Assembly (NCBI RefSeq): GCF_037042905.1
Contig: NC_087245.1
Coordinates: 30,196,001-30,260,000 of the forward strand
Direction: 5' to 3'
DNA from: Lytechinus pictus
Taxonomy: Eukaryota
Length of the DNA stretch: 64,000 bases
Positions within the stretch are counted from its first letter, which is position 1; each line of letters opens with the position of its first letter. The notes under the pieces were generated by a model. The model saw only the letters and a program-made list of their open reading frames with translations, was not told the DNA's origin and made no database searches. Both the position numbers and the translations under genes were made by a program. This document shows positions 1,888-49,400 of this stretch, one piece after another.

Positions 1888-3007
1888 TTCACAAAAGAAT
1901 ACTATGTCCATTAAACCAAGATGACCTTTGACCATGATCATGTGACCTAAGACATATGCAAAACAATTATTAGTACTTGATTACCCTTACACTGTATGTC
2001 CAAGTTTCATGAACTCGATCTATAAACATTAAAGTTATGATAATTCCACCATTATATCCCCTACACTTTCAAAGTTTGTTGACCCTAAATGACCTTTGAC
2101 CTAGATGAAGTGACATGAAACTTGCACAAGATGTGCAGGGATACGTCTAAGTTTCATAATGAGCTCGCACTTCGTGCTCGGAGTATTATATTTTTACATT
2201 TTCCTTCATGTGTTCAGGTCAGTAAATAAATACTTTCTGTTCGCGTCCAATTAGGCCTACAGATGCGGAATCCGTGCATGTGTAAAGAAAATTTAAATTT
2301 TTCAACTAAGAATATAAAAAAATTTCAGCTCACACTTCGCGCTCGTATTCAAGTCTAAATCTAGAAAAAAATACCAACTCGCGCTTCGCGCTCGCACTAC
2401 TTAATTCATGATTGCAAAAAGTATTTCGAAAGTCAAATTCTCAGGTTTTGAAATAAACAAAATTTTAGGTCGCACTTCGCGCTTGCAAATGTTATTTAGT
2501 ACTATGCCCACCTTTTTCATGGTTACATACAACTCGCTTATTTACTGTGCTCTTTATTAAACTGTGATAACCAGTTCAGTTTTCAGCTCGGATATCTGAA
2601 TTTGTTTTTTTCCCGTCAGCTCTCGCTTCGGGCTCTATAGTGAGAAATGAATTATATTCATGAGTCAATGCAACAGTCATTTATTACATTATTGTTTAGT
2701 TGTTAACGGACATTATTCATAGTGTTTATAATGTCCAAATTTCAGATCGTATATCCATCCTCTTCATGATTACAATCGAGTGTTCAGGTCGAAATATAAA
2801 CATTTTCAATGAGCGCGAATGGTAATTTATATTGAGGCCACATGAAATACGTTGTCTTGTTTCTAAGAATGAAAGTTTAGTTAGGACTTACTCCAAGAAA
2901 ATAAAATCAGATTTTGGCGGCAGTAACGGGGAAAATGTGAATGAAACATTTTTTTCCCGCCCCCTTCCCTTCTATTGATAACTTGAGCTGGATCTGTCCC
3001 TTGGTAT
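1888..3007 (+). repeat. Local duplication of 3575-7619 with a large internal deletion
   Basis: 1888-2157 matches 3575-3948 and 2160-3007 matches ~6740-7619 at high identity by eye; both copies end at CTGTCCCTTGGTATGA. Confidence 0.85.
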
Positions 3008-6552: not shown

Positions 6553-7500
6553 GCTCGCGCATCGCGCTCACATAACTCGTTCGATTTGATGCCCATCGTG
6601 TTCAAGATTGCAAAATAAAATGTTTAGAATGTTCAATTACCAGGTTGTAAAATCAAAGTTATCAGTCCGCACAACTATCCAACAGTGATTAGTATGTTCC
6701 GGGTTTAAGGTCAAAAATTTATATAAAAAAAAAGAAAATGAGCTCGCACTTTGTGCTCGGAGTATCACATTTTTACATTTTCCTTCATGTTGGACAGTAG
6801 TTTAAAGGTTCCCGTTCAGGCCAGTAAATAAATACTTTCTGCTCGCGTCCAATTAGGCCTACAGATGTGGAATCCGTGCATGTGTAAAAAAAAGTTAAAT
6901 TTTTCAACTAAGAATATCAAAAATTTTCAGCTCACACTTTGCGCTCGTATTCAAGTCTAAATCTAGAAAAAAATACCAACTCGCGCTTCGCGCTCGCACT
7001 ACTAAATTCATGATTGCAAAAAGTATTTTGTATGTCATATTCTCATGAAGGTTATGAAATAAACAAAATTTTAGGTCGCACTTCGCGCTTGCAAATGTTA
7101 TTTAGTACTATGCCCACCTTTTTCATGGTTACATACAACTCGCTTATTTACTGTGCTCTTTATTAAACTGTGATAACCAGTTCAGTTTTCAGCTCGGATA
7201 TCTGAATTTGTTTTTTTCCCGTCAGCTCTCGCTTCGGGCTCCATAGTGAGAAATGTATTCTATTCATGAGTCAATGCAACAGTTATTTATTACATTATTG
7301 TTTAGTTGTTAACGGATATTATTCATAATTAGTGTTTATAATGTCCAAATTTCAGATCGTATATCCATCGTCTTCATGATTACAATCGAGTGTTCAGGTC
7401 AAAATATAAACATTTTCAATGAGCGCGAATGGTCATTTATATTGAGGCCACATGAAATACGTTGTCTTGTTTCTAAGAATGAAAGTTAAGTTAGGACTAA
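4940..7500. repeat. Degenerate repeat family built on GCGCGAAGCGCGAG / CTCGCGCTTCGCGC motifs
   Basis: Motif recurs roughly every 100-150 bp in AT-rich spacers and switches orientation near 6050-6300. The same family occurs at 2160-3420, 14130-14550 and 56600-57950. Confidence 0.7.
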
Positions 7501-7929
7501 CTCCAAAAAAATAAAATCAGATTTTGGCGGCAGTAACGGGGAAAATGTGAATGAAACATTTTTTTTTCCCGCCCCCTTCCCTTCTATTGATAACTTGAGC
7601 TGAATCTGTCCCTTGGTATGACGAAAGAAAATGTGACTAATGATAATGAAGAACCCTACCATGCCACATGGGATCGTCGAACGTCGGGAGTCGGTACTGA
7701 TATTTGTCGGTAATCAGAGCCTCCACCCCCTCCCGCCCCCCTCCCCCACCACCACTGGAAATGGCCTCGCGATTCCCCTGTCTGTGGCCTCCGTGTCGGC
7801 GACCTCGTGGTCAGTATCGTTGTTGTTGTTGTTTTAGCTTATACGGCGCGTGTCATTCAGTAGTGAATATATCGTGTGTGTGTGTGTGTGTATTTGAGTT
7901 TTGTCAGACGTGTATCAATCATATATGAT

Positions 7930-8675: not shown

Positions 8676-11600
8676 TACGAATAAGGAACAACGTATTTCG
8701 AATAAGTAACAATTAACATATTTTGAATAAGTAACAATGTATTTCGAATAAGTAACTGGGTATTTCGAATAAGTAACTGCGTATTTTGAATAAGTAACTA
8801 CGTATTTCGAATAAGTAACTGGGTATCTGAATAGATAAATGGGAATTTTGAATAAGTAACTGCGTATTTTAAATAAGTCACTGGGTATTTCAAATAAATA
8901 ACTGGGTATTTTAAATAAGTAACTGAGTATTTCGAATGAGTAACTGCGTATTTCGAATATGTAACTGCGTATTTCAAATAAGTAACTACGTATTTCGAAT
9001 AAGTAACTACGTATTTCGAATAAGTAACAAGTAATCAACTTCACATTTTGAATAAGGAATAAGTAACTCACTTCACATTTTAAATAAGCAATAAGGAATA
9101 AGTAACTAACTTAACTAAGTTCACATTTTGAATAAGGAAAAAGTAATAAGTAATAAATACGTATTTTGAATAAGTAACTACGTAATTCCAATAAGTAACT
9201 GGGTATTTCGAATAAGTAACTGGGTATTTCGAATAAGTAACTGGGTATTTGAATAAGTAACTGAGTATTTCGAATGAGTAACTGCGTATTTCGAATATGT
9301 AACTGCGTATTTGGAATAAGTAACTACGTATTTCGAATAAGTAACTACGTATTTCGAATAAGTAACAAGTAACCAACTTCACATTTTGAATAAGGAATAA
9401 GTAACTAACTTCACATTTCAAATAAGCAATAAGGAATAAGTAACTAACTTAACTAAGTTCACATTTTGAATAAGGAATAAGGAATAAGTAATAAGTAATA
9501 AATACGTATTTTGAATAAGTAACTACGTAATTCAAATAAGTAACTGGGTATTCCGAATAAGTAACTGTGTATTTCGAATAAGTAACTGGGTATTTGAATA
9601 AGTAACTGGGTATTTTGAATAAGTAACTGGGTATTTCGAATAAGTAACTGGGTATTTGGAATAAGTAACTGTGTATTTTGAATATGTAACTGCGTAATTC
9701 AAATCAGTAACTGCGTATTTCGAATAAGTAACTGCGTATTTGGATAAGTCGAATAAGAAATTATGTATTTGAATAAGTAACTACGTTTTTCGAATAAGTA
9801 ACTACCTATTTCGAGTAAGTAACTATGTATTTTGAATATGTAACTACATATTTCGAATGACTTAACTACGTATTTCGAATAAGTAACTGGGTATTTCGAA
9901 TAAGTAACTGGGTATTTCGAATAATTAACTCAGTATTTCCAATAAGTAACTGCGTATTTTGAATACGTAACTGCGTATTTCTATTAAGTAACTACGTATT
10001 TCAAATAAGTAACTACGTATTTCAAATAAGTAGCTGGGTATTTCGAATAAGTAACTGGGTATTTCGAATATGTAACTGGGAATTTGAATTAGTAACTGGG
10101 TAGTTCGAATAAGTAACTGCGTATTTCAAATAAGTAACTGTGTATTTCGAATAAGTAACTGTGTATTTGAATAAGTCAAATAAGAAACTATGTATTTGAA
10201 TAAGTAACTACGTTTTTCGAATAAGTAACTACATATTTTAAATTAGTAACTACGTATTTTGGGTATTTCGAATAAGTAACTCGGTATCTGAATAAGTAAA
10301 TGGGAATTTTGAATAAGTAAGTGCGTATTTCAAATAGGTAACTGGGTATTTGAAGAAGTAACTGGGTATTTTGAATAAGTAACTGGGTATTTTGAATAAA
10401 TGACTGGGTTTTTGAATAAGTAACTGGGAATTTTGAATAAGTAACTGCGTATTTCGAATAAGGAACTTGGTATTCGAATAAGTAACTACGTATTTCGAAT
10501 AAGTAACTGGGTATTTCGAATAAGTAACTGGGTATTTCGAATAAGTAACCGGGTATTTGAATAAGTAACTGGGTATTTCGAATAAGTAACTGGGTATTTC
10601 GAATAAGTAACTGCTTATTTCGAATAAGTAACTGCGTTTTTCAAATAAGTAACTGCGTATTTGAATAAGTCGAATAATAAACTATGTATTTGAATAAGTA
10701 ACTACGTTTTTTGAATAAGTAACTACGTATTTTGAATAAGTAACTATGTATTTTGAATAAGTAACTACATATTTCGAATAACTTGATTACGTATTTTGAA
10801 TAAGTAACTGGGTATTTCGAAAAAGTAACTACGTATTACAAATAAGTAACTACGTATTTCAAATAAGTAACTGCGTATTTTGAATAAGTAACTGGGTATT
10901 TCGAATAAGTAACTGGGTATTTCGAATAAAGTAACTGCGTATTTTGAATAAGTAACTGCGTATTTTGAATAAGTAACTCGGTATTTTGAATAAGTAACTG
11001 CGTATTTGAATAAGTCGAATAAGTAACTATGAATTTGAATAAGTAACTACGTTTTTCTAATAAGTCACTACGTATTTCAAATAAGTAACTACTTATTTCG
11101 AATAAGTAACTGGGTATTTCGAATGAGTATTTCAAATAAGTCACTACGTTTTTCGAATAAGTTACTACGTATTTCAAAAAAAGTAACTATGTATTTGAAT
11201 AAGTAACTACATTTTTCGAATAAGTAAATACGTATTTCGAATAAGTAACAAGTAACCAACTTCACATTTTGAATAAGGAATAAGTAACTAACTTCACATT
11301 TTAAATAAGCTATAAGGAATAAGTAACTAACTTAACTAAGTTCACATTTTGAATAAGGAATAAGTAATAAGTAATAAATACGTATTTTGAATAAGTAACT
11401 GGGTATTTTGAATAAGTAACTGGGTATTTCGAATAAGTAACTGGGTATTTGAATAAGTAACTGGGTATTTTGAATAAGTAACACTGTATTTCGAATAAGT
11501 AACTGGGTATTTCGAATAAGTAACTGGGTATTTGGAATAAGTAACTGTGTATTTTGAATATGTAACTGCGTAATTCAAATCAGTAACTGCGTATTTCGAA

Positions 11601-13952
11601 TAAGTAACTGCGTATTTGGATAAGTCGAATAAGAAATTATGTATTTGAATAAGTAACTACGTTTTTCGAATAAGTAACTACCTATTTCGAGTAAGTAACT
11701 ATGTTTTTTGAATATGTAACTACATATTTCGAATGACTTAACTACGTATTTCGAATAAGTAACTGGGTATTTCGAAAAAGTAACTACGTATTTCAAATAA
11801 GTAACTGGGTATTTCGAATATATAACTGGGTATTTCCAATGAGTAACTGAGTATTTCCAATTAGTAACTGCGTATTTTGAATACGTAACTGCGTATTTCG
11901 AATAAGTAACTACGTATTTCAAATAAGTAACTACATATTTCAAATAAGTAACTTGGTATTTCGAATAAGTAATTGGGTATTTCGAGTAAGTAACTGGGAA
12001 TTTGAATAAGTAACTGGGTATTTCGAATAAGTAACAGGGTATTTCGAATAAGTAACTGGGTTTTTGAATAAGTAACTGGGAATTTTGAATAAGTAACTGC
12101 GTATTTTGAATAAGGAACTTGGTATTCGAATAAGTAACTACGTATTTCGAATAAGTAACTGCGTATTTTGAATAAGTAACTGTGTATTTCGAATAAGTAA
12201 CTGGGTATTTTGAATAAAGTAACTGCGTATTTTGAATAAGTAACTACGTATTTCGAATAAGTAACTGGGTATTTTGAATAAATAACTGCGTATTTCAAAA
12301 AAGTAACTGCGTATTTGAATAAGTTGAATAAGTAACTATGTATTTGAATAAGTAACTACGTTTTTCTAATAGGTAACTACGTATTTCGAATAAGTAACTA
12401 CTTATTTCGAATAAGTAACTGGTATTTCGAATGAGTATTTCAAATAAGTCACTACATTTTTCGAATAAGTTACTACGTATATCAAAAAAAGTAACTATGT
12501 ATTTGAATAAGTAACTACATTTTTCGAATAAGTAACTACGTATTTCAAATAAGTAACTACATTTTTCTAATAATTAACTGGGTATTTCGAATAAGTAACT
12601 GGGTATTTGAAGAAGTAACTGGGTATTTAAAGAAGTAAGTAGGTATTTCGAATAAGTAACTGCGTATTTGAATAAGTCAAATAAGAAACTACGTATTTCG
12701 AATAAGTAACTACATTTTTCGAATAAGTAACTACATATTTTGAATAAGTAACTACGTATTTCAAATAAATAACTGGGTATTTCGAATAAGTAACTGGGTA
12801 TCTGAATAAGTAAATGGGAATTTTGAATTATCGTGGAGCGTTGTGGCCCAGTGGATTAGTCTTCGGACTTTGAAACAGAGGGTCGTGGGTTCGAATCCCA
12901 GCCATGGCGTAATTTCCTTCAGCAAGAAACTGATCCACAGTGTGCTGCACTCAACCCAGGTGAGGTAAATGGGTACCGGTAGGAAGTAATTCCTTAAAAA
13001 GCTGTGTGCGCTATGAACGCCTAGCTTAGCCGGGTAATATAGGAGCGCCTCGAGCACCTAACAAGGTGGATATGTGCGCAATATAAATACCCTATATTAT
13101 TATTATAAGTAACTGCGTATTTCAAATAAGTAACTGGATATTTCAAATAAATAACTGGGTATTTCAAATAAGTAACTGAGTATTTCGCATAAGTAACTGC
13201 ATATTTTGAATATGTAACTGCGTATTTTGAATAAGTAACTACGTATTTCGAATTAGTAACTACGTATTTCGAATAAGTAACAAGTAACCAGCTTCACATT
13301 TTGAATAAGGAATAAGTAACTGACTTCATATTTTAAATAAGCAATAAGGAATAAGTAACTAGCTTAACTAAGTTCACATTTTGAATAAGGAATAAGGAAT
13401 AAGTAATAAGTAATAAATACGTATTTTGAATAAGTAACTACTTAATTTGAATAAGTAACTGGGTATTTCGAATAAGTAACTGGGTATTTCGAATAAGTAA
13501 CTGGGTATTTGAATAAGTAACTGGGTATTTCGAATAAGTAACACTGTATTTCGAATAAGTAACTGGGTATTTCGAATAAGTAACTGGGTATTTGGAATAA
13601 GTAACTGTGTGTTTTGAATATGTAACTGTGTAATTCAAATCAGTAACTGCGTATTTCGAATAAGTAACTGCGTATTTCGAATAAGTAACTGCGTATTTGA
13701 ATAAGTCGAATAAGAAACTATGTATTTGAATAAGTAACTACGTTTTTCGAATAAGTAACTACCTATTTCCAATAAGTAACTATGTATTTTGAATATGTAA
13801 CTTCATATTTCGAATAACTTAACTACGTTTTTCGAATAAGTAACTGGGTATTTCGAAAAAGTAACTACGTATTTCGAATAAGTAACAGGGTATTTCGAAT
13901 AAGTAACTGGGTATTTGAATAAGTAAATAAGTAACTGGGTATTTGAATAAGT
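8676..13952. repeat. ~21-bp minisatellite/satellite, consensus TATTTCGAATAAGTAACT(GGG/ACG/GCG), with higher-order blocks
   Basis: Directly visible tandem array; the YSKYPVT / LFEIRSY ORFs are its translation. Confidence 0.95.
12830..13106 (+). mobile_element. tRNA-derived SINE inserted in the satellite
   Basis: A box TGGCCCAGTGG, B box GGTTCGAATCC, anticodon-like loop CTTTGAA, (TAT)n tail; near-identical copy at 19545-19817. Confidence 0.9.
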
Positions 13953-24813: not shown

Positions 24814-25479
24814 TTAAGTTGCCCTTCTTAAATGCCCGACCAGTGCCCGATTTCCTTTTACTGTTCTGAGAACTCTTATACAAGTGCATGTTTTATTTCT
24901 TAAAAATAATTTCAAAATGTTATGCCCCCATCACTTGCCCTTTTTCATCTGCAGAGTGCCCCTTTTTACCTTTGATTAAGCGCCCCATTTGAATATGTCG
25001 TTATTCTAATAAATGCCTCTTTTCTTTTCTAGATTGTTCAAAATGTGCAGTTTGTTAATGTAAAGTATTTGCTATTAGCGCACTCTTATGCAGGGGCACC
25101 TGAACTGGGAAAAGGGGGCACCCCCCCCCCTTTGTGTCTACAAGGGGCATTAGACTTTTTACCTTAGGGTGCCCTGGGGTAGGCAAGGTGTTGAACGTAA
25201 TCTGTTTTCACCCAACCCCTTTTGACAATTTTTTTTTGACCAATTGACCACCGATGGGGACGGACGTACTTTAAGAGCGCTCTTGGCCAATGTCGCCGCA
25301 ACTACTACACGACTTATTTTCTTAATTATGACTAAGGATGTACCTGATATTTGAACTACTGTATATTCTATATCTGCTTATGGATTATTTACGGTCTTCA
25401 CTTCATAAAAACTGATCTTACTACGAATAACCAGATACATTCTTCTCACTGCGTTTTCTTCGACTTATTCGTAGTCATC

Positions 25480-26313
25480 ATGCACCCAAGTACTCGCTCT
25501 AAGACGGCTAATAAGACGCCGCCCGCCCTTCAAACATCAACCCAAGAAGCTAGCAACAACCTACCTCAGTTAACCCTAGCAGACCTTTACAAGAAAATAT
25601 CAGAATCTACATCTAACCTAGGAGACAAGATTGATAAACTTTCAAACGAGGTTAGTCAAATTAATAAGAGGTTTGATGAACTTGAGGATAGCGTCGTTTT
25701 TCATACCGGGAAAATCAACGAAATCGAGAAGGAAATTATTCCCGAAGTAAAGTCGTCTCTTCAAGAGGAAATACAGAAGCTACAGGACAAAATAACGATG
25801 ATGGAAATCCACAACAGGAAATCGAATTTGCTTTTCTACGGAGCTACGGAAACACGCGGAGAAGATATCTACACTGTGTTAAAGGAGATTTTCATACATC
25901 TTGGCATACCTGCGAGGGAAGCGGATCAAATCCAGGTGATAAACACCCACCGGCTACCGAGGCGCCACGCCGAAGCAAACGCAAGTAACCTTGGCCCGAA
26001 CCCGATAATCGCCAGATTTGTCTTCATGGGAGATCGCGACCGTATTTTAAATGCTTTCGAACAACGTAGCCGAAGCAAAAGCGGAGCGACCCCCGAACCT
26101 CAACCCCAACCAGCAGGATCACAACGGCCGCGTATCACCGTAAGGACTGATCTACCCCCGGCACTAAAAATTCAACGTGGGAAGTTAGCTAACGAGGCTT
26201 ACAAATTGCGTAAAGAAAAAGGCCTATCAACGAAAATTGTTGTGTACGAAGCTAAAGTCATCCTAAAGTGGAAGGAAAAGGGATCAGCTAACTGGAACAA
26301 CTACACTGGATAA
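25480..26313 (+). CDS. L1/Tx1-type ORF1 protein (coiled coil, RRM, CTD), intact
   Basis: Uninterrupted ORF from ATG (MHPSTRSK); heptad-rich N-terminal half, then the ORF1p motifs RKSNLLFYG, HRL, PIIARF, DRDRIL and TDLP. Confidence 0.85.
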   Translation: MHPSTRSKTANKTPPALQTSTQEASNNLPQLTLADLYKKISESTSNLGDKIDKLSNEVSQINKRFDELEDSVVFHTGKINEIEKEIIPEVKSSLQEEIQKLQDKITMMEIHNRKSNLLFYGATETRGEDIYTVLKEIFIHLGIPAREADQIQVINTHRLPRRHAEANASNLGPNPIIARFVFMGDRDRILNAFEQRSRSKSGATPEPQPQPAGSQRPRITVRTDLPPALKIQRGKLANEAYKLRKEKGLSTKIVVYEAKVILKWKEKGSANWNNYTG

Positions 26314-30204: not shown

Positions 30205-33200
30205 AGGTAGATACTTCCAAGGCGGTGCATTGGCCAACAGAGCCTTTTGTACTTTATAGTATATCTCTCAGTGACGATCCTGATACCTCCGTCTCTGTAT
30301 CCACTTGACTGCACACACACGCACATGCACTCACTCCCAACACACATCCCTCAACATGATCAACAACACAGATGAATTCAATAATGAAAATAAATATTAC
30401 ACAGTAGCAGAATTTAATAACTCATTTTCGAAAACAAACAGCTTTAGCATTTTACATATCAACTCAAGAAGCCTCAGCAAAAATTTTGAATATCTTCAAC
30501 ACTTGCTTTGTGCCATCAATTCAGTTCAATTTTCAGTTATTGGTGTCAGTGAAACCTGGTTCAATAAAAATTCTCCTCCATTATTTAACTTACCAAATTA
30601 TTCTTTGATTAGAGCTGACCGTGTAGGAAGGAGAGGGGGTGGTGTTGCCTTTTACGTTTCCGACAATTTGAAATTCCGTACTCGAAATGACATAATATTT
30701 GAGCGAACTGAAACATTGTTTATTGAGATTGACATACCTAAGAGTAAAAATATTATTATTGGCTTAATATACAAACCTCCCAATGTTGAATTTGACATAT
30801 TTTATCAAAATCTGGAGCAATGTCTTGATAAACTTTCTACAGAGAATAAACATATTTATTTCATGGGTGATTTTAATACAAATTTTCTGAATATAAATAA
30901 TTCTAATACCGAAAGATTTCTTCAATTAACTAATTCTTATGCTTTTTCCTCACATATAAATAAACCCACAAGAATAACTGCAGCTTCTGCGACTTTAATA
31001 GATAACATTTTTTCTAATATTCATAATGAAACAATCATCGGCGGTTTACTTTATTCAGAAGTATCAGACCATTTGCCAATATTCACGATATCCGAAACCA
31101 ATTCATCTAAAAATAAATCAACAATACCTCCCCGCTATAGATTAGAAACTCCCAGAAAAATTGAATCTTTCAAACGGGACCTTTTTGAAGAAAATTGGAG
31201 TGATATTTACAATGAAAATAATGTGCATATTGCTTATGAGAAATTTAACAATAAATTACAATTTTATTACGATAAAAATTTTCCACTTGTGAGGAAGCGT
31301 CAAAATTCCCGGGAGGCCAAAAACCCGTGGATCACAAAAGGGATTCTAAAATCAATACATACTCGAAACAGTCTTTACAAATTACATTTAAAGAAACCAT
31401 CACCCATAAACGTGCAAAAATATAGGAAATATCGGAACAAACTTACAAATTTAATAAGATTATCTCGCAAGATGTATTACTCAGACAAATTAACTAAAGT
31501 TAGCGCTAATTCAAAGGCGACATGGCGGGTTATAAATGAGATTATCGGAAAAAAGACAACTGAATTACCTAAAGATGGACTAACTTTAAACGGTGATAAC
31601 ATCGCAGATAATTCCACTTATGCTTCACAATTCAATTCTTTTTTTAGTAACATCGGCCCCCAACTAGCAAATAAGATAGGTAGTTGCAACAATGCACATT
31701 TTACTGATTTTATTTCAACGCCATTCGAAAATTCTATTTTTCTCAATCCTACCAACCCCACTGAACTCATTAACATTACGAAATCCCTAAACTCTAGTAA
31801 GTCACAAGGACATGATAGGATAAGTACATCTATGCTTAAAGAAATTATTCATGTTATTGTTGATCCTTTAACTTATATTTTTAATCAATCTATATCATCA
31901 GGTGTTTGTCCGAACCTACTCAAAATTGCAAAAGTTACCCCGATCTACAAAAAAGATGATCCTCATGAAATAAGTAATTACCGCCCAATTTCTATACTTT
32001 GTAGTATATCCAAAATCTTAGAAAAAATAATATACACACGATTGTACAATTTTTTAAACTTGCATAATTTATTGAATCAAAATCAATATGGTTTTAGGAA
32101 AAATCACTCTACAGATTTAGCGCTAGTAAATATTTACGACAAAATTACTAAAGCGATGGCTGATAAAGAACATGTTATTGGAATATTTTTGGACCTAAGC
32201 AAAGCTTTTGATACACTTAATCACAAAATATTACTTCACAAACTACATTTATACGGAATACGTGGAAATGCACACAGATGGTTAGAAAATTATTTATCAA
32301 ACAGACAACAATATGTTACATTTAATGGAATAGATTCAACCTTTAAAACTATCGAATGCGGTGTGCCTCAGGGGTCAATTTTGGGGCCGCTCCTCTTCCT
32401 ATTATATGTCAATGATATATCAAATACTTCGGCCTTATTATCGTTTATCCTCTTTGCAGATGATACTAATATTTTTTATGCTCACACAGAACTAGAAACT
32501 GTAATATCTACTTTAAATGTTGAATTATGTAAAGTATCTACTTGGTTCAAATGCAACAAATTATCCTTAAAAATAAACAAAACACATTTTATGCACTTTA
32601 AGCATTACAATACACATGCTGTTAACAATACAATAACGATAAACATTGATAACGTATCTCTACAGCAAAAACAACATTCAAAGTTTCTAGGGGTAACTAT
32701 TGATGAAAATTTATCCTGGAATAATCATTTAAGCCAAGTCACAACTTCCGTGTCCAAAGGTGTTGGAATAATTTCCAAATTAAAATACATATTACCTGAA
32801 AAAACTCTCTTTTTACTTTATAATGTTTTGGTGCTTCCTCACATATCATATTGTAATATAGTTTGGGGTAATTGTGGTAAAACGAAACTTAATCCGATTT
32901 TCTTATTACAAAAAAGAGCAGTCCGTATTTGCACAGGATCACAATATCTTGCTAGATCCAATCCTTTATTTTTTAAATTAAAAACATTAAAAATTTCAGA
33001 TATAAATACATTTCATGCTGCTATATTCATGTTCAAATACAAAAAGGGATTACTTCCCCCTTCCTTTCAAAATATGTTCACCCTGAACAACACCATCCAT
33101 TCTTATCCAACACGAAACTCCACAAACTTTCATTTAACAAATCCAAAACTAATAATAACACACAAATCAATTAGACATTACGGTGCGGATTTGTGGAATG

Positions 33201-33773
33201 ATTTATCACATGACATTAAGCTATGCACATCACTTTATTCATTCAAAGCTGTTCTGAAAAAAAATACGCTGTCAAGCTATAATTTCTAAAATCTTTCTGT
33301 GTACCCAAACAACTGATAATCCCCCCCCCCTTGCACATGCACACTCGCACACCTGCACTTGCACTTTCACTTTTATCAACGTTATTAATCTTATCTCAAT
33401 CAAATTTCTCTTCTCTATCCACTTTTGATATATTCCTATTATTTTGTGCAATAAAAGATAGTCTCTTTTATTGCACTATACAGTCTGGTTTTCTACCCCC
33501 TTTCCTTTCGAGGCCTCCATCGCTTTCAAGCTCCAAGCTTAAGATGGAGGTCTCCCACATTTCTATATATATGTTCAGTAATTAAAGAAAATGTATATAG
33601 ATATATAATTTCACAGTACAGTTGATATTTTATAATGATTTATGTGCATTATTCATTATGTTTAAAAAAATATTTGCTTATTATGTAATATTGAAAAAAA
33701 ATGTTATACTTGTATATTCTTTGTTTTTTGTTTAGAAATGTGGAAATAAAATAAATCAAAATCAAATCAAAAT
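30205..33773 (+). mobile_element. Young L2/CR1-group LINE copy without a visible ORF1
   Basis: ORF2, ~450-bp 3' UTR with a stem-loop (CCTCCATC...GATGGAGG), AATAAA and an (AAATC)n tail. The 5' boundary is approximate. Confidence 0.85.
30305..33289 (+). CDS. Intact LINE ORF2 (APE endonuclease + reverse transcriptase), L2/CR1 group
   Basis: EN motifs ILHINSRSL, GVSETW, MGDFN, LIDNIF, SDHLPI; RT motifs NYRPIS, DLSKAFD, GVPQGSILGP, FADDT, FLGV. No stops over 994 codons; first ATG at 30356. Confidence 0.95.
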   Translation: MTAHTRTCTHSQHTSLNMINNTDEFNNENKYYTVAEFNNSFSKTNSFSILHINSRSLSKNFEYLQHLLCAINSVQFSVIGVSETWFNKNSPPLFNLPNYSLIRADRVGRRGGGVAFYVSDNLKFRTRNDIIFERTETLFIEIDIPKSKNIIIGLIYKPPNVEFDIFYQNLEQCLDKLSTENKHIYFMGDFNTNFLNINNSNTERFLQLTNSYAFSSHINKPTRITAASATLIDNIFSNIHNETIIGGLLYSEVSDHLPIFTISETNSSKNKSTIPPRYRLETPRKIESFKRDLFEENWSDIYNENNVHIAYEKFNNKLQFYYDKNFPLVRKRQNSREAKNPWITKGILKSIHTRNSLYKLHLKKPSPINVQKYRKYRNKLTNLIRLSRKMYYSDKLTKVSANSKATWRVINEIIGKKTTELPKDGLTLNGDNIADNSTYASQFNSFFSNIGPQLANKIGSCNNAHFTDFISTPFENSIFLNPTNPTELINITKSLNSSKSQGHDRISTSMLKEIIHVIVDPLTYIFNQSISSGVCPNLLKIAKVTPIYKKDDPHEISNYRPISILCSISKILEKIIYTRLYNFLNLHNLLNQNQYGFRKNHSTDLALVNIYDKITKAMADKEHVIGIFLDLSKAFDTLNHKILLHKLHLYGIRGNAHRWLENYLSNRQQYVTFNGIDSTFKTIECGVPQGSILGPLLFLLYVNDISNTSALLSFILFADDTNIFYAHTELETVISTLNVELCKVSTWFKCNKLSLKINKTHFMHFKHYNTHAVNNTITINIDNVSLQQKQHSKFLGVTIDENLSWNNHLSQVTTSVSKGVGIISKLKYILPEKTLFLLYNVLVLPHISYCNIVWGNCGKTKLNPIFLLQKRAVRICTGSQYLARSNPLFFKLKTLKISDINTFHAAIFMFKYKKGLLPPSFQNMFTLNNTIHSYPTRNSTNFHLTNPKLIITHKSIRHYGADLWNDLSHDIKLCTSLYSFKAVLKKNTLSSYNF

Positions 33774-40765: not shown

Positions 40766-42008
40766 TTATTTATCTATTTATTATTTATTTATTTGGTATT
40801 ATTAGTAGTTATGGGTTAGACCTCATACCAACTTGACCTTTGACCCGGCCATGACCTTTGACCACATGACCTTTGACCCGGCCATGACCTTTGACCACAT
40901 GACCTTTGACCCTGTCATGACCTTTGACCACATGACCTTTAGCCCGGTCAGCCAAGACCTTTAGCCCGGTCAGCCACGACCTTTAGCCCGGTCAGCCTTT
41001 GACCTTTGGCCCGGTCAGTCATGACCTTTAGTCCGGTCAGCCTTTGACTGCATGACCTTTAACCCGGTCAGCCTTTGACCACACGACCCGATGGGTTGAC
41101 CCAGACTTCCGGTCAGCCATGTCACCATGAAATGGTATTACGACACAGTTACGCAACCACCGTGATGTCATAGAATTACCCTTATCGCACCATATCGGTA
41201 TTGCACCACCGTGGCGCAATCGCCACGTATAGGATACGATGCACAAAAAAGATTTATGATTTCTAAACAGTTAAAAAGTGAAAAGTTATCTTTCTCTACC
41301 TACCAGCAGGTATGTCAAGTGCCTCGCGGTTCACGAATCGATCACCCCATGCACGGCCAACGCGCGTGATTGAACTTGGGATATCCTATTGGAAAAGTGA
41401 AACCTGACTCTCTCTGCCTCTTATTACAACAATAATTGGTAATCCAACATGTGATTATAATCATGACATCTCAGGCTCTACTCATTCCAGACATTTCCCC
41501 ATCAAAACTCTCTGACTTTTTCATACTGTTTTGTTCATACTTTTCATTTTAACTCACATGACCTGCCCGGCTCTCTGACTCGCAAAAAAATATATTGAAA
41601 CCAGTAGATGACTCCTTTAAATCAACTTCATTCAACCGCAGTACAGATGGTGATAACACGAAACACTATATAGTCAAGGATGATTCTTTATTATTACGAT
41701 CATTTATTCTATTCCATTTCAATGTACATAGGTTCAGATATTGTATAAACAGCAGATTTTGATACAAAGGTAAAATAATGTAAGTTATGTTCTCAAATTA
41801 TGTTGTAATAACAAAATAATTGTTAACTGTTCATTGTTAATATTACAGTGAAGTTCTCGTTTTCTATTTCTTCGCTTAACTTAATGGATTGTAACACATG
41901 TCTATGGATGGCATTCAGAAAATATGAACACAATGAAGTTCAAACTGTCATTTATGTTGACGGCGTTTTCTTGGATTATTATTATTCGACAAGCTGATGT
42001 TTGTGCCT

Positions 42009-42506
42009 TTAGTTGTAGACTCCATCTTCACCCTCCGTTTCTTCTCCACCATCATCATCGTCATCGTCACCTTGATACTGGAATAAACCGTCGAATTGTG
42101 AACCATGCCTGGCTAACACTCTCTGTACGGCTTTCCGGAATTCCATGCCATTCTCTAATCTTTCCGAGAGATCGGACACGATTTCATGATTGATGTCAGC
42201 GTCTTCGAGGTACACGTTCTGCTGCAAGAACTGAGAGTAAAGATCGAAAAAGATGCGTTTGACTGCCCACATTAGTTTCACGTGAGCCTTTGCTTTAGCG
42301 TCTTCTTCTTCCATTCCTTCTAAGATGTATTTCTGATATTTTTCGTCTCTCAAGTCCTTGGTGGCCGTCATGGCTTGCTCTAACCATCCTCGATAAGCGA
42401 GGTTGTCTTCAGTTTCTTCCATGTTTGCTGTCATTGACGATTTGTGTCCATCGCTTTCTGATACGCTCGTTTTGGAATCATCGTTGGATTCTACAACTCT
42501 TTGCAT
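42009..42506 (-). CDS. 165-aa acidic, probably helical protein of unknown function (left arm copy)
   Basis: Uninterrupted ORF with protein-like composition and an acidic tail; one residue differs from the right arm copy. Confidence 0.6.
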   Translation of the reverse strand: MQRVVESNDDSKTSVSESDGHKSSMTANMEETEDNLAYRGWLEQAMTATKDLRDEKYQKYILEGMEEEDAKAKAHVKLMWAVKRIFFDLYSQFLQQNVYLEDADINHEIVSDLSERLENGMEFRKAVQRVLARHGSQFDGLFQYQGDDDDDDGGEETEGEDGVYN

Positions 42507-42532
42507 TTGAGAGGGTGGGTCGGAGTCTTCAT

Positions 42533-43586
42533 CGGATGTTTACCGATTCTTACGGATGTTTACGGATTCTTACGGATGTTATGGATTCTTACGGATTCTT
42601 ACGGATTCTTACGGATGTTTACGGATTCTCACGGATGTTTACGGATTCTTACGGATGTTTACGGATTCTTACGGTTGTTTACGGATTCTTACGGATGTTT
42701 ACGGATTCTTACGGATGTTTACGGATTCTTACGGATGTTTACGGATTCTTACGGATGTTTACGGATTCTTACGGATTCTTACAGATGTTTACGGATTCTC
42801 ACGGATGTTTACGGATTCTTACGGAGGTTTACGGATGTTTACGGATTCTTACGGATAGTTACGGATTCTTATTGATTCTTACGGATTTTTACGGATGTTT
42901 ACGGATTCTTACGGATGTTTACAGATTCTTAAGGATTCTTACGGATGTTTACGGATTCTTACGGATTTTTACGGATTCTTACGGATTCTTACGGATGTTT
43001 ACGGATTCTTACGGATGTTTACGGATTCTTACGGATTCTTATGGATGTTTACGGATTCTTACGGATGTTTATGGATTCTTACGGATGTTTATGGATTCTT
43101 ACAGATGTTTACGGATTCTCACGGATGTTTACGGATTCTTATGGATTCTTATGGATGTTTACGGATTCTTACGGATGTTTACGGATTCTTACGGATGTTT
43201 ACGGATTCTTACGGATTCTCACGGATGTTTACGGACGCTTACGGATTCTTACGGAGGTTTACGGATGTTTACGGATTCTTACGGATGTTTACGGATTCTT
43301 ACGGATGTTTACGGATTCTCACGGATGTATACGGATTCTTACAGATGTTTAGGGATACTTACGGATGTTTACGGATTCTTACGGCTGTTTACGGATTCTT
43401 ACGGATTCTTACGGATGTTTACGGATTCTTATTGATTCTTACTGATTTTTACGGATGTTTACAGATTCTTACGGATTCTTACGGATGTTTACGGATTCTT
43501 ACGGATGTTTAGGGGTTCTTACGGATGTTTACGGATTCTTACGGATTCTTTTGGATGTTTACGGATTCTTACGGATGTTTAAGGAT
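42533..43586. repeat. 10-bp two-variant tandem array (ACGGATGTTT / ACGGATTCTT), left arm
   Basis: Directly visible, about 105 units in strict 10-bp phase. Confidence 0.95.
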
Positions 43587-43670
43587 TGCTGCATGCTGCA
43601 TGGGTCATTCCAACATGGTTGAACTTTCCTTGAGAATATATGAAAGATTATATGAAAGCATCAATTAATC

Positions 43671-44701
43671 TGTAGAATCCGTGAGAATCCGTAAACATCC
43701 GTAAGAATCCGTAAACATCCGTAAGAATCTGTAAGAATCCGTAAACATCCGTAAGAATCCGTAAACATCCGTAAGAATCCGTAAACATCCGTAAGAATCC
43801 GTAAACATCCGTGAGAATCCGTAAACATCCGTAAGAATCCGTAAACATCCGTAAGAATCCATAAACATCCGTAAGAATCCGTAAACATCCATAAGAATCC
43901 GTAAGAATCCGTAAACATCCGTAAGAATCCGTAAACATCCGTAAGAATCCGTAAGAATCCGTAAGAATCCGTAAACATCCGTAAGAATTTGTAAGAATCC
44001 GTAAGAATCCGTAAACATCCGTAAGAATCCTTAAGAATCTGTAAACATCCGTAAGAATCTGTAAACATCCGTAAACCTCCGTAAGAATCTGTAAACATCC
44101 GTAAGAATCTGTAAACATCCGTAAAAATCCGTAAGAATCAATAAGAATCCGTAACTATCCGTAAGAATCCGTAAACATCCGTAAACCTCCGTAAGAATCC
44201 GTAAACATCCGTGAGAATCTGTAAACATCTGTAAGAATCCGTAAGAATCCGTAAGAATCTGTAAACATCCGTAAGAATCCGTAAACATCCGTAAGAATCC
44301 GTAAACATCCGTAAGAATCCGTAAACATCCGTGAGAATCCGTAAACATCCGTAAGAATCCGTAAACATCCGTGAGAATCCGTAAACATCCGTGAGAATCC
44401 GTAAACATCCGTAAGTATCCCTAAACATCTGTAAGAATCCGTAAACATCCGTAAGAATCCGTAAATATCCGTAAGAATCCGTAAACATCCGTAAGAATCC
44501 GTAAGAATCCGTAAACATTCGTAAGAATCCGTAAGAATCCGTAAACATCAGTAAGAATCCGTAAACATCCGTAAGAATCCGTAAGAATCCGTAAGAATCC
44601 GTAAACATCCGTAAAAATCCGTAAAAATCTGTAAGAATCCGTAAACATCCGTAAGAATCCGTAAGAATCCGTAAACATCCGTAAGAATCGGTAAACATCC
44701 G
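43671..44701. repeat. 10-bp two-variant tandem array (GTAAACATCC / GTAAGAATCC), right arm, inverted
   Basis: Reverse complement of the left-arm units, about 103 units, in a different unit order. Confidence 0.95.
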
Positions 44702-44727
44702 ATGAAGACTCCGACCCACCCTCTCAA

Positions 44728-45225
44728 ATGCAAAGAGTTGTAGAATCCAACGATGATTCCAAAACGAGCGTATCAGAAAGCGATGGACACAAATCGTCAA
44801 TGACAGCAAACATGGAAGAAACTGAAGACAACCTCGCTTATCGAGGATGGTTAGAGCAAGCCATGTCGGCCACCAAGGACTTGAGAGACGAAAAATATCA
44901 GAAATACATCTTAGAAGGAATGGAAGAAGAAGACGCTAAAGCAAAGGCTCACGTGAAACTAATGTGGGCAGTCAAACGCATCTTTTTCGATCTTTACTCT
45001 CAGTTCTTGCAGCAGAACGTGTACCTCGAAGACGCTGACATCAATCATGAAATCGTGTCCGATCTCTCGGAAAGATTAGAGAATGGCATGGAATTCCGGA
45101 AAGCCGTACAGAGAGTGTTAGCCAGGCATGGTTCACAATTCGACGGTTTATTCCAGTATCAAGGTGACGATGACGATGATGATGGTGGAGAAGAAACGGA
45201 GGGTGAAGATGGAGTCTACAACTAA
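44728..45225 (+). CDS. 165-aa acidic, probably helical protein of unknown function (right arm copy)
   Basis: Uninterrupted ORF with AATAAA ~300 bp downstream. Confidence 0.6.
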   Translation: MQRVVESNDDSKTSVSESDGHKSSMTANMEETEDNLAYRGWLEQAMSATKDLRDEKYQKYILEGMEEEDAKAKAHVKLMWAVKRIFFDLYSQFLQQNVYLEDADINHEIVSDLSERLENGMEFRKAVQRVLARHGSQFDGLFQYQGDDDDDDGGEETEGEDGVYN

Positions 45226-46414
45226 AGGCACAAACATCAGCTTGTCGAATAATAATAATCCAAGAAAACGCCGTCAACATAAATGACAGTTTGAACTTCA
45301 TTGTGTTCATATTTTCTGAATGCCATCCATAGACATGTGTTACAATCCATTAAGTTAAGCGAAGAAATAGAAAACGAGAACTTCACTGTAATATTAACAA
45401 TGAACAGTTAACAATTATTTTGTTATTACAACATAATTTGAGAACATAACTTACATTATTTTACCTTTGTATCAAAATCTGCTGTTTATACAATATCTGA
45501 ACCTATGTACATTGAAATGGAATAGAATAAATGATAGTAATAATAAAGAATCATCCTTGACTATATAGTGTTTCATGTTATCACTATCTGTACTGCGGTT
45601 GAATGAAGTTGATTTAAAGGAGTCATCTACTGGTTTCAATATATTTTTTTGCGAGTCAGAGAGCCGGGCAGGTCATGTGAGTTAAAATGAAAAGTATGAA
45701 CAAAACAGTATGAAAAAGTCAGAGAGTTTTGATGGGGAAATGTCTGGAATGAGTAGAGCCTGAGATGTCATGATTATAATCACATGTTGGATTACCAATT
45801 ATTGTTGTAATAAGAGGCAGAGAGAGTCGGGTTTCACCTTTCCAATAGGATATCCCAAGTTCAATCACGCGCGTTGGTCGTGCATGGGGTAATCGATTCG
45901 TGAACCGCGAGGCACTTGACATACCTGCTGGTAGGTAGAGAAAGATAACTTTTCACTTTTTAACTGTTTAGAAATCATATATCTTTTGTGTGCATCGTAT
46001 CCTATACGTGGCGATTGCGCCACGGTGGTGCAATACCGATATGGTGCGATAAGGGTAATTCTATGACATCACAGTGGTTGCGTAACTGTGTCGTAATACC
46101 ATTTCATGGTGACATGGCTGACCGGAAGTCTGGGTCAACCCATCGGGTCGTGTGGTCAAAGGCTGATCGGGTTAAAGGTCATGCGGTCAAAGGCTGACCG
46201 GGCTAAAGGTCATGGCTTACCGGGCCAAAGGTCAAAGGCTGACCGGGCTAAAGGTCGTGGCTGACCGGGCTAATAGTCATGTGGTCAAAGGTCATGACAG
46301 GGTCAAAGGTCATGTGGTAAAAGGTCATGGCCGGGTCAAAGGTCATGTGGTCAAAGGTCATGGCCGGGTCAAAGATCAAGTTGGTATGAGGTCTAACCCA
46401 TAACTACTATTATT

Positions 46415-49400
46415 TATACAGGGTAACCCCATCAGTAGTCAAATACTGTTGTACTTGGGGGCCCTGTATATCATGAAACAAAACAAAATACAAGCATATA
46501 TACAATACAAATGAAAAATACAAATCCTAAACATAAGCAGATGGAATTTTTAAGTATAAATCTAATAACAAAAAGTTGTGTGTGAAATTGAGAACAATAA
46601 TTTAACCCAGAGCTATAAGTAGAAAGTAACAGGGGAAAGAAAGATAGAAGGTAAGGATGAGTTGAGGTTTAAAAAAAAAGAACACAGCAGAGAGCTAAAG
46701 CGGGAGAAGAAGGCACATCACCATTTACACTACAATGCAATTATAGTATAGTCTGAAAATATAATTTTTCCTTATATATTAAAATGGGTGTATCTATACC
46801 TCCAGTATGATGATGTAAAGGAAGATTTCGACGTGGAGTTTTTAACTTCATTAGGAAGTTGGTTCCACAGGCACGCACCGTGATGGGAGAAGGCTCTTTT
46901 ACCAGCTTTGGTGCGTGCCCGTGGAACCAAGATTCCACGGTTCAATGCATTTCTTGTATGATGGGAATGGAAAGAACTAAATCTCGGGAACAAATCTGAG
47001 AGGTAACCTGGGGCTTCGCCCTGCGTAGAATTAAACATAGTTTTGCACATTTGAAATCGCCATCGTTCTTCAAGTGGTACCCAATTTAATCTTCCAAACA
47101 CTACAGCAGTAGGTGTATTAAAGTCTACCTGCAAGACCAGTCGAGCCATTCGTTTTATCAAAGTGTCCTTTTAAGTTTTTAAGTTTTTACAGTTGGTCCA
47201 GGTGTTGCAACAGTATTCGAGATGCGGTAAAACTAATGAATTTGCCAATAGTTTAGCACTTGAAACTGTCACATACTTCCGCAATCTAGCAAAAAGTGCA
47301 AGTCTAGACGCAACTTTTTTACTGGTTTCGTTTATATGAGTTCTCCACGTGAGTTTTTCATCAAAATGTACTCCGAGATATTAAAAATTCGACACTCTTT
47401 CAATTCTATGTTGTTCAATGACGAGGTTTAGATCAAAATTCTTGAGTCTTTGTTGGGTTCCAAAAAGCATGTACTGGGTTTTTGTTAAATTGAGTACCAA
47501 ATGATTATGCATTAACCAACGATTCACATTGTGTAGATCTTCATTCATGACAGATTCATGACACGATTCATGACACGATTTCGCACTTATCTATAACCTT
47601 GGTAATATCGTTTACTATGACTGAGAATAAGAGTGGCCCCAAGATAGACCCTTGGGGAACCCCTATACTCACTTCTACAATTTCAGATAATACCCCTTTT
47701 ACACATGTTTGTTGAGTTCTGCCTTTCAGGTATGAACTGAACCACTCAAGTTCCTTTCCTTTAATACCATAAACAGAAAGTTTCTCGAGTAATAGTTCGT
47801 GGTCGATGGAATCAAATGCTTTCCTGAGATCCAGGAAAACTACACCAGTCAGTCGACCACGATCCATCTCTTTGTACAGGCGATCCGTAACATTGGTAAG
47901 CACAGTGTGGGTCGAATGATGCTTTCGAAAGCCAGACTGCTCCTTTACTAGCATGACTAGTATGTTATTTTCAGTACAGAAATCGTGGAGCTTTGTATGG
48001 ATTACCCTTTCGAACACTTTCATGACTATAGGTAATACTGATACTGGCCTAAAATTGTTAGGGTCGTGCCTGTCTCTACCTTTGTGTAAGGCAGCAACTT
48101 TGGCTTCTTTCCATTCATTTGGTATACAACCAGATTCAATTGAGCTGTTATATAATCTTGTCAAATGAACGTAATTGACTGATGCAGCCGATTTCAGGAG
48201 TTTGACATTCAACCCATCGCTTCCGGTCGCCTTTTTTTATCAAGATTTTTCAGAATGTTTAGCACGACATCAGGTTCTATCGTGTCAAATGGGAAGACCT
48301 TGTTACCCTGGGAAACACTGGTCAAACGACTCATGATATCATTCCCCTTAGCATAATCAAATGAAGCATTTGCACCAAAAGAACTAAATATTTTATTCAA
48401 CTCATTTGCTATTTGCTTAGGATCACACAATTTGTTCCCGTTAATATTGAGAATATTTGTAGTTGTCTAGGTCTACCACCTGTTAGCCCCTTTAAAATCT
48501 GCCAAAGTTAAGCGGAGTTATTTTTATTTTCCAAAATACTCCTCTGATAGAAGTCGTTTATCAATGTTTTCTTAAAGTTATTTACATGATTCCTCTAATG
48601 TACGATAATTCCTAAAGTACGATAATGCATCCAATGTATGGGTAACCCAGAACGCTGTGCAAGACGTTTTAACTTATCTCGTTGGTAAGATAGAGATATA
48701 TATTTATCATTAATCCATGGTGTTTTTATACCTCTTACATTCATTGTTACAACTTGGGCATTATAATTACAAATTTGCATGAAATCATGTTTCCAGCATG
48801 ACCTTCAAGATTTCTTTCTAGGTGTAAGCTTTGTATTTGTTGTAAAAATATTCCGACATCAAATCTCTTAAATGATCAAAAGGTGAGGACTTTAGGTGCC
48901 AACGTAGGCTTATATAACTTCCTCACAATATATACCAGATTATGGTCACTAAGACCCTCTGTCAAGACAGCGCTCATGCAAACGTTATTAGGAGTATTGG
49001 TCAGAATAATATCTATGAGACTCGTACTGTTTTCTGTTATTCTATTTGCAGATTCGATAACTTGTTTTAAATCGTTACTGTTACATAGATGGTCAATAAA
49101 ACGAGAACTAGAACTACAAAACATATCATAATTGAGGTCTCCCAATATCTAGACTTCTTTTTCTTGAGAAGTTGCTCTAACTATAGTTTCTTCGATGTTT
49201 CTTTGATACGAAATGTCAGAGTTTGGAGGTCGTAATATGTGCCAATTAATATATTGGTGGACTGTTTTACCCTGAGTTCAATCCATATTGATTCGAGTCG
49301 TGTTCAAGATCAAATCTACGCGTGTAATATAAAGAGTCTAAAACATAAACTGCAACACCGCCACCATGACGGTTACGATCGCGCCTCTCTAGAAATAAAC

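What the first reader, a model, noticed from the sequence alone, without database searches (positions are those of the whole stretch)
40804..46408. 5.6-kb fully palindromic element with Polinton/Maverick-type ends, a possible snap-back or satellite derivative
Seen: AGTAGT...ACTACT termini, an exact 6-bp ATTATT duplication, two ~2.75-kb inverted arms and only ~85 bp of unique spacer. It sits inside a LINE 3' tail that resumes on the other side, so it integrated as one unit. Known: Polintons have AG/AGT-repeat ends and 6-bp TSDs and are thought to replicate by protein-primed strand displacement through a panhandle. Inference: this is a minimal hairpin genome formed by template switching at one end of a Polinton. 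It keeps only the origins/integrase sites and one small gene and would depend on a helper, like a defective-interfering genome.
Basis: partly seen in the sequence, partly recalled or inferred. Interest (0 to 1): 0.85.

Follow-up and report, generated by a model that had tools for sequence, protein, structure and literature searches.

The report
Palindromic satellites of urchin Polinton viruses
This 5.6-kb mirror-image DNA insertion is one of dozens of copies of a small parasite element that borrows the ends, and probably the enzymes, of virus-like Polinton transposons while carrying its own conserved gene, which suggests that animal Polintons have their own satellites.

Summary
The element is real. 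It has AGTAGT/ACTACT ends, a true 6-bp duplication inside a LINE tail and mirror arms, although about 1 kb of each arm is a 10-bp array.

It belongs to a dispersed family. Of 30 two-ended copies examined, 29 have perfect 6-bp duplications, and arms differ by 0.09% within a copy against 4.1% between copies.

Its gene encodes a C2H2-finger, acidic, helical protein and is under purifying selection (variant ratio 0.26). It was absent from all 5 full Polintons checked, and this copy has lost the finger on both arms. Four families carry the gene; three share termini with a different resident full Polinton each, and end junctions are mirrored on both arms.

Best reading (0.65): a long-lived, helper-dependent satellite lineage that captures helper ends and is re-symmetrised by arm-to-arm copying. 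It is not a one-off snap-back of its helper. Hairpin replication and the protein's role are inferred. No helper was found that matches this copy's ends beyond about 100 bp.

The scan noted similar palindromes before, in this genome and in others (unchecked notes).

The parts
40798..40803 (+). left copy of the 6-bp target-site duplication (ATTATT), inside the TA-rich 3' tail of a minus-strand LINE
   Evidence: uninterrupted LINE copies show a single copy
40804..40833 (+). left terminus, (AGT)2 motif; about 75-105 bp resemble the ends of resident full Polintons
   Evidence: motif described in PMC8097293
40834..41079 (+). subterminal short repeats of the TGACCTTT type, 15-45-bp periods
   Evidence: similar repeats lie in the helper TIR
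41080..42008 (.). left non-coding arm, most of it part of the ~1.4-kb core shared by family A copies
42009..42539 (-). left, outward-pointing remnant of the C2H2-finger/acidic/helical gene; 165-aa ORF 42009-42506; first 41 codons and the upstream stretch are missing
42533..43587 (+). left 10-bp tandem array with two alternating units sharing TTACGGAT
43588..43676 (.). central asymmetric spacer, shared by 24 of 30 copies; several copies show small nested fold-backs in it
43677..44684 (-). right, inverted 10-bp tandem array
44695..45225 (+). right remnant of the same gene with the same 5' break; 165-aa ORF 44728-45225
45226..46145 (.). right non-coding arm, mirror of the left
46146..46408 (-). 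right subterminal repeats and terminus ending ACTACT
46409..46414 (+). right copy of the target-site duplication
46409..48236 (-). host LINE interrupted by the element (3' region; reverse-transcriptase frame 47568-48236)
   Evidence: Pfam RVT_1 E 1.7e-23; 43 genome matches to its 3' end

Best explanation
A member of a non-autonomous satellite lineage of Polinton/Maverick elements. SHOWN: it inserts as a whole with Polinton-type ends and 6-bp duplications; it encodes no replication, integration or capsid protein; it carries its own conserved gene that the examined helpers lack; relatives carry ends of different resident Polinton families; and changes on one arm (substitutions, deletions, stop codons, end junctions) end up on both arms. 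INFERRED: a helper's protein-primed polymerase starts at the captured ends. The displaced strand folds into an almost complete hairpin that is itself a duplex template. Copying or repair across that hairpin keeps the arms identical and lengthens the inverted repeats until they meet, and the helper's integrase inserts the duplex. GUESS (about 0.35): the protein is a DNA-binding regulator acting at the TTACGGAT arrays upstream of its own gene. The window copy is a degenerate member whose finger was lost on both arms, so the protein was not needed in cis for this copy.
For: 29 of 30 two-ended copies have perfect 6-bp duplications. Median arm distance is 0.09% within a copy against 4.1% between copies; the partner arm is strictly nearest in 15 of 21 copies, and the tree has no left or right clade. 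9 of 9 two-armed copies tested have the same helper-end/core junction on both arms, and the junctions differ among copies. Two copies carry 860-900 bp of one helper end, beyond its ~550-bp TIR, on both arms. The gene shows 30 synonymous against 34 non-synonymous variants in 14 distinct sequences (ratio 0.26, binomial p 3e-7) and dN/dS 0.10-0.20 between families. It is absent from 5 of 5 full Polintons, and no listed hit lies within 600 kb of 17 integrase loci. Families B and C share exact 24-nt termini with their own full Polintons. Forms range from one gene with ~1-kb or ~2-kb inverted repeats to full palindromes. A 16-kb end-to-end multimer of family D lies within a single duplication.
Against: No free hairpin or linear form was observed. 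No helper matches this copy's ends beyond about 100 bp; 13 of 30 copies have this end type. No helper was found for family D. 12 of the 17 integrase loci were not read as sequence, and only 150 of 299 gene candidates were scored. In 6 of 21 copies the partner arm is not strictly nearest: 2 are ties and 4 have arms differing by up to 4.6%. Different end junctions could come from deletions of one captured end. RNA support is thin: 95 of 8.7 million records, on both strands, with no start site. Unchecked scan notes report palindromic forms of unrelated transposons in this genome, which would favour a general host-side process.
Confidence: 0.65

Rival explanations
1. Snap-back or deletion derivatives of Polintons that carried the gene as a terminal accessory gene and are now lost or unsampled. 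Selection on the gene would date from that parent.
For: Some copies hold a single helper end on both arms. One family B copy carries a 236-aa ORF that is 87% identical to its helper's end region, so helper accessory genes do enter these elements. 12 integrase loci were not read.
Against: The gene is absent from 5 of 5 full Polintons of three end types. Selection is visible among the satellite copies themselves. It would need four separate parents that all lost the gene or vanished.
Confidence: 0.17
2. Ordinary non-autonomous foldback transposons moved by the Polinton integrase. The symmetry would be made and kept in the chromosome by gene conversion or repair between inverted repeats, not by hairpin replication.
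For: Unchecked scan notes describe palindromic Tc1 and IS3EU-like families in the same genome. Four copies have arms that differ by 1.5-4.6%, three of them closer to other copies than to each other, which conversion between loci could explain.
Against: One-arm insertions of about 33 and 43 kb persist. The window's arms keep 11 differences, 7 of them transitions, as expected if copying stops after insertion. The end-to-end multimer inside one duplication suggests free linear molecules (a single case). It does not explain a selected gene.
Confidence: 0.13
3. A host-beneficial hairpin-RNA source that silences Polintons.
For: Read-through of a palindrome would give double-stranded RNA, and RNA reads lie on both strands.
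Against: Only the ends match helpers, about 100 bp in this copy. The protein-coding gene is under selection. The RNA signal is very low.
Confidence: 0.04
4. Assembly artefact from fold-back reads.
For: Perfect palindromes are a known long-read artefact (own knowledge). No laid record spans the centre, because the centre was not part of the stretch laid.
Against: There are dozens of loci with distinct duplications, non-identical arms, non-collinear arrays and a conserved asymmetric spacer. The host LINE is split cleanly.
Confidence: 0.01

Closest known systems
Polinton/Maverick elements (PMC8097293, passages read)
   Same: (AGT)2//(ACT)2 termini, 6-bp duplications, terminal inverted repeats; ends shared with resident full elements.
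   Different: None of the core genes. It is 2.6-6.2 kb against 12.7-24.6 kb. Inverted repeats cover nearly the whole element against 46-1,447 bp. It has its own gene, which the examined helpers lack.
AAV snapback subgenomes (PMC8235507, abstract and outline read)
   Same: Self-complementary subgenomic molecules with two copies of one end, dependent on the full virus; both 5'-type and 3'-type forms, like the divergent and convergent palindromes here.
   Different: AAV forms are transient pieces of the parent genome. These are germ-line integrated, heritable, carry a gene not found in the helper, and pair with several helper families.
Transpovirons (PMC5499653, passages read)
   Same: Small linear DNA with terminal inverted repeats and no structural genes, parasitic on a larger DNA virus, Polinton-related.
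   Different: Transpovirons encode an SF1 helicase and accompany mimiviruses. No helicase-sized ORF is present here, the partner is a Polinton, and the element is a palindrome in an animal genome.
Polymerase-less mobile Polintons of insects (bioRxiv 10.1101/2025.02.07.637071, passages read)
   Same: Polinton-ended elements that stay mobile without polB; some have ~2-kb gene-containing TIRs.
   Different: Those keep Polinton core genes and are over 12 kb; the word palindrom does not occur in that text.
Non-autonomous foldback/MITE-type DNA transposons, including sea-urchin TU elements (recalled; search found no paper)
   Same: Long inverted arms with internal tandem repeats, moved in trans.
   Different: Polinton-type ends and 6-bp duplications here, and a selected protein-coding gene.

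Membership tests
Polinton/Maverick (autonomous) | (AGT)2 or (AG)3 terminal motif | tested here: met
   definition in PMC8097293
Polinton/Maverick (autonomous) | 6-bp target-site duplication | tested here: met
Polinton/Maverick (autonomous) | terminal inverted repeats | tested here: met
Polinton/Maverick (autonomous) | protein-primed polymerase and retroviral-like integrase | tested here: not met
   the only non-array ORF over 100 aa from an ATG is the 165-aa remnant
Polinton/Maverick (autonomous) | ATPase, protease and capsid genes | tested here: not met
   such genes were found in the helpers only
Non-autonomous Polinton-dependent element | ends shared with a resident full Polinton | tested here: met
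   families A, B, C; only about 100 bp for this copy; none found for family D
Non-autonomous Polinton-dependent element | repeated independent insertion without own enzymes | tested here: met
   29 of 30 perfect duplications, 27 distinct hexamers
Non-autonomous Polinton-dependent element | mobilisation by helper polymerase and integrase | not testable with these tools
   inferred from shared ends and duplication length
Defective-interfering / snap-back genome | sequence derived wholly from the helper genome | tested here: not met
   core and gene absent from 5 of 5 full Polintons examined; unsampled parents not excluded
Defective-interfering / snap-back genome | self-complementary molecule with two copies of one end | tested here: met
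Defective-interfering / snap-back genome | interference with helper replication | not testable with these tools
   no data
Viral satellite (transpoviron-like) | own gene maintained by selection and distinct from the helper's | tested here: met
Viral satellite (transpoviron-like) | SF1 helicase of transpovirons | tested here: not met
   no ORF of that size; no such Pfam hit for the family protein
Viral satellite (transpoviron-like) | packaging in helper particles | not testable with these tools
   no particle data

The most novel reading that the evidence does not exclude
A previously undescribed class of true subviral satellites of animal polintoviruses. One ancient gene lineage (single C2H2 finger, acidic linker, helical domain with no known fold match) hops between unrelated Polinton helpers by capturing their replication and integration ends. 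It replicates as a snap-back hairpin and may use its protein to regulate itself or the helper.
Probability: 0.4. Interest if true: 0.85.

Novelty: new variant of a known kind. Interest (0 to 1): 0.7.

Why it matters
Free replication of animal Polintons by protein priming through a panhandle is a long-standing model without direct proof (own knowledge). Dozens of young palindromic copies whose arms are repeatedly made identical, which carry captured helper ends and form end-to-end multimers, are an indirect record of that extrachromosomal phase. They give specific, detectable intermediates to look for in a laboratory sea urchin. A selected gene kept apart from the helpers would extend virus-satellite biology to germ-line DNA viruses of animals. 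The gene is also mis-annotated as a host gene in public databases, and it is a usable marker for finding such elements elsewhere.

Tried and rejected
Long terminus pairs as helpers. The 48.8-kb and 38-kb pairs are family copies with one-arm insertions. The 16.2-kb family D pair is a satellite multimer, not a Polinton.

Single-ended copies as a non-palindromic family A parent. The 8 examined are truncated or interrupted copies and showed no second kind of end.

Protein function. Pfam gives only a weak C2H2 hit below cut-off. The Atlas gave no usable hit. The AlphaFold model is confident over residues about 90-205, but the viral library gave no match at E<=0.001 and the wide PDB search no Z>=8; this is inconclusive, not evidence of a new fold. 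The second ORF of family B gave no Atlas hit.

Other collections. No relative was found in viral contigs. Only four short metagenome contigs were found, too short to show ends.

Literature. Ten searches listed no description of palindromic, gene-bearing Polinton satellites. The original Polinton paper was not held, and Repbase and most subscription journals were not searchable. PMC9863843 gave only reference-list hits. Passages of PMC3014272, PMC6431247, PMC10680173 and bioRxiv 10.64898/2026.10.13.758929 had nothing on such elements. No supplements were read.

No complex prediction was run, because no protein-protein binding is claimed.
Full report
OBSERVATION. The element spans 40804-46408. 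Its first and last 30 bases are exact reverse complements beginning AGTAGT, and ATTATT flanks both sides. The right flank is the 3' region of a minus-strand LINE (RVT_1). Three of four other LINE copies fetched read through the site with one ATTATT, so the duplication and the single-step insertion are real. The outer arms are 99% complementary over 1,625 bp. The inner kilobase of each arm is a 10-bp array that is not collinear between arms, and about 89 bp separate the arrays.

A FAMILY, NOT A ONE-OFF. The 26-nt terminus has 32 forward and 31 reverse matches in the genome, against 0 for the control. I fetched loci. Thirty were two-ended non-helper copies, including the window; 29 of 30 have perfect 6-bp duplications, with 27 distinct hexamers. 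Twenty-eight are 2.6-6.2 kb, and two are swollen by one-arm insertions. Eight further loci were single-ended or truncated and two were complex arrays; these are left out of the counts. The layout is conserved: end, variable outer region, ~1.4-kb core, outward-pointing gene, array, spacer, mirror image. The spacer was found in 24 of 30 copies and two-sided arrays in 23 of 30. A protein search scored 150 of 299 candidates; these form 51 divergent pairs, 2 convergent pairs and 44 singles, so the count is a lower bound. The closest named proteins are from the sea urchin Lytechinus pictus, under uninformative host-gene names.

THE GENE. Intact copies encode 215-216 aa, and 31 of 60 arms passed my full-length filter. 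The model shows a single C2H2-like finger, a low-confidence acidic linker and a confident five-helix domain; no fold match was significant. Relative to one intact copy, the window copy lacks 231 bp, including the first 41 codons and the finger, at the same point on both arms. It also has the longest arrays (149 motif hits against a median of 41). Among 14 distinct family A genes there are 30 synonymous and 34 non-synonymous variants (ratio 0.26, p 3e-7; shared variants alone 0.27, p 0.002). The copies are related, so these p values are approximate. Pooled pairwise dN/dS is 0.33 within A and 0.10-0.20 between families. Remote homologues exist: 71 representatives at E<=1e-10, a few of which match through zinc fingers only, mostly unnamed and on short contigs. 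Four metagenome contigs at about 40% identity were recovered. Three have arrays of TTACTCAT- or TTACGCAT-like units upstream of the gene, the fourth a few related units, and two have an inverted array downstream as well. Family B keeps TTACGGAT units upstream, while families C and D do not. The link between array and gene is therefore suggestive only.

HELPERS. Two full-length Polintons share the family A terminus and have their own duplications. Pfam confirms integrase, type B polymerase and A32 ATPase, with a weak adenovirus protease hit. The capsid labels rest on size, position and recall, not on a call. A third copy of this helper family has a variant terminus that matches two satellites over the first 26 bases. 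Three further families carry the same gene with other ends. Family B (AGAGAAT) shares an exact 24-nt terminus with a 17.3-kb Polinton and family C with a 17.2-kb Polinton; their integrases are only 42-53% identical to that of helper A. For family D (AGCAGC) no helper was found. The gene was absent from 5 of 5 full Polintons examined. No listed gene hit lies within 600 kb of 17 integrase loci, of which 12 were not read as sequence. Two convergent family B palindromes instead carry ends like those of a 14.6-kb element with 3,446-bp identical TIRs, a distant polymerase-like ORF (E 6e-12 to helper A's) and no other long core ORF.

ARM SYMMETRY IS RENEWED. Over ~1.1 kb of core, median distance is 0.09% within a copy and 4.1% between copies. 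The partner arm is strictly nearest in 15 of 21 copies with both arms; two are ties and four are not. The tree has no left and right clades. Sixteen of 30 copies carry 440-900 bp of helper A's end, 13 (including the window) share only about 40-150 bp, and one has one end of each type inside a perfect duplication. The two end types are interleaved on the core tree. In 9 of 9 two-armed copies tested, the junction between helper end and core is the same on both arms and differs among copies. Shortened ORFs are also mirrored. Family B shows a series: one gene with ~1-kb repeats, one gene with ~2.2-kb repeats, then divergent and convergent full palindromes with different centres. Large one-arm insertions persist, and the window's arms keep 11 differences (7 transitions, 3 of them at CpG). 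That fits copying before insertion but does not prove it.

MECHANISM. Protein-primed strand displacement with a panhandle intermediate is the standard model for Polintons and adenoviruses (recalled; PMC8097293 passages support protein priming at these end motifs). In a palindrome the displaced strand would fold into a near-complete duplex with one open origin, and copying or repair across it would give exactly the mirrored changes seen. Helper polymerase and integrase acting in trans are inferred from shared ends and 6-bp duplications. No intermediate was observed. The protein's role is a guess.

EXPRESSION. On one intact copy, 95 of 8,710,588 RNA records were laid at 88% likeness. Depth was at most 12, reads lay on both strands, 39% ran on into unlike sequence, and no start site appeared. 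By the usual convention most gene-body signal would be antisense, but the library was not calibrated, so this is inconclusive. Contigs from three coded organism labels hold pieces of the arm and gene; one may be the assembly's own source.

COMPARISON AND VERDICT. It works like a Polinton-dependent non-autonomous element and resembles AAV snapback genomes (PMC8235507, abstract). It fails membership as a Polinton (no core genes) and, on the helpers examined, as a defective-interfering genome (core not from the helper). Ten paper searches found no description of such elements, but Repbase and most subscription journals were out of reach, and I recall that non-autonomous Polintons have been catalogued. 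Unchecked scan notes report Polinton-ended palindromes in this genome and several others, and palindromic forms of other transposons in this genome; I use them as leads only. Verdict: a real feature and a new variant of a known kind, interest 0.7. The satellite-lineage reading stands at 0.65, and its boldest form at 0.4.

Noticed in passing
G000:C17:8134560-8181441 (L081-L086): 47-kb tandem array of family A units about 4.1 kb long, in which a terminus is joined to an internal arm position; the outer ends share one 6-bp duplication. It could be amplified self-insertion, local duplication or an assembly effect.
   Followed up: partly
G000:C19:4647614-4662238 (L117-L118): 14.6-kb element with 3,446-bp identical TIRs, a 6-bp duplication, a distant polymerase-like ORF and a multi-finger ORF but no other long core ORF; a degraded relative lies at C29:1070203-1084533. 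Possibly a second, polymerase-only class of Polinton dependants.
   Followed up: partly
G000:C1:8757111-8773346 (L135-L136): Family D multimer: units joined terminus to terminus with a few bases lost, plus an unrelated ~6-kb insert, inside one duplication.
   Followed up: partly
G000:C5:43400251-43406122 (L140): Non-palindromic family B copy carrying a 236-aa ORF 87% identical to a region near its helper's end; other B copies have a different 138-147-aa ORF there.
   Followed up: partly
G000:C8:34725002-34730896 (L064): Cluster of very short palindromes made only of family A end sequence.
   Followed up: no
G000:C17:12792967-12809161 (L056-L057): Full Polinton with an internal 3.8-kb duplication of its left end; its polymerase region is split into several ORFs.
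   Followed up: no
window 8678-13926: 5.2-kb satellite array of a 21-bp unit.
   Followed up: no
window 30284-33289 and 25348-26313: 1,001-aa open LINE frame (endonuclease and reverse transcriptase) and a 321-aa coiled-coil frame that may be a LINE ORF1.
   Followed up: no
window 2212-2964 and 6814-7574: About 750-bp direct repeat, 94-98% identical, 4.6 kb apart.
   Followed up: no
window 42533-43587: One array unit contains TGTTTAC next to GGAT, resembling forkhead and ETS sites; the subterminal TGACCT repeats resemble nuclear-receptor half sites (both recalled, untested).
   Followed up: no
L123 and L124: Distant metagenome homologues of the gene are flanked by inverted short-repeat arrays on both sides, as if in very small TIR elements.
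   Followed up: partly
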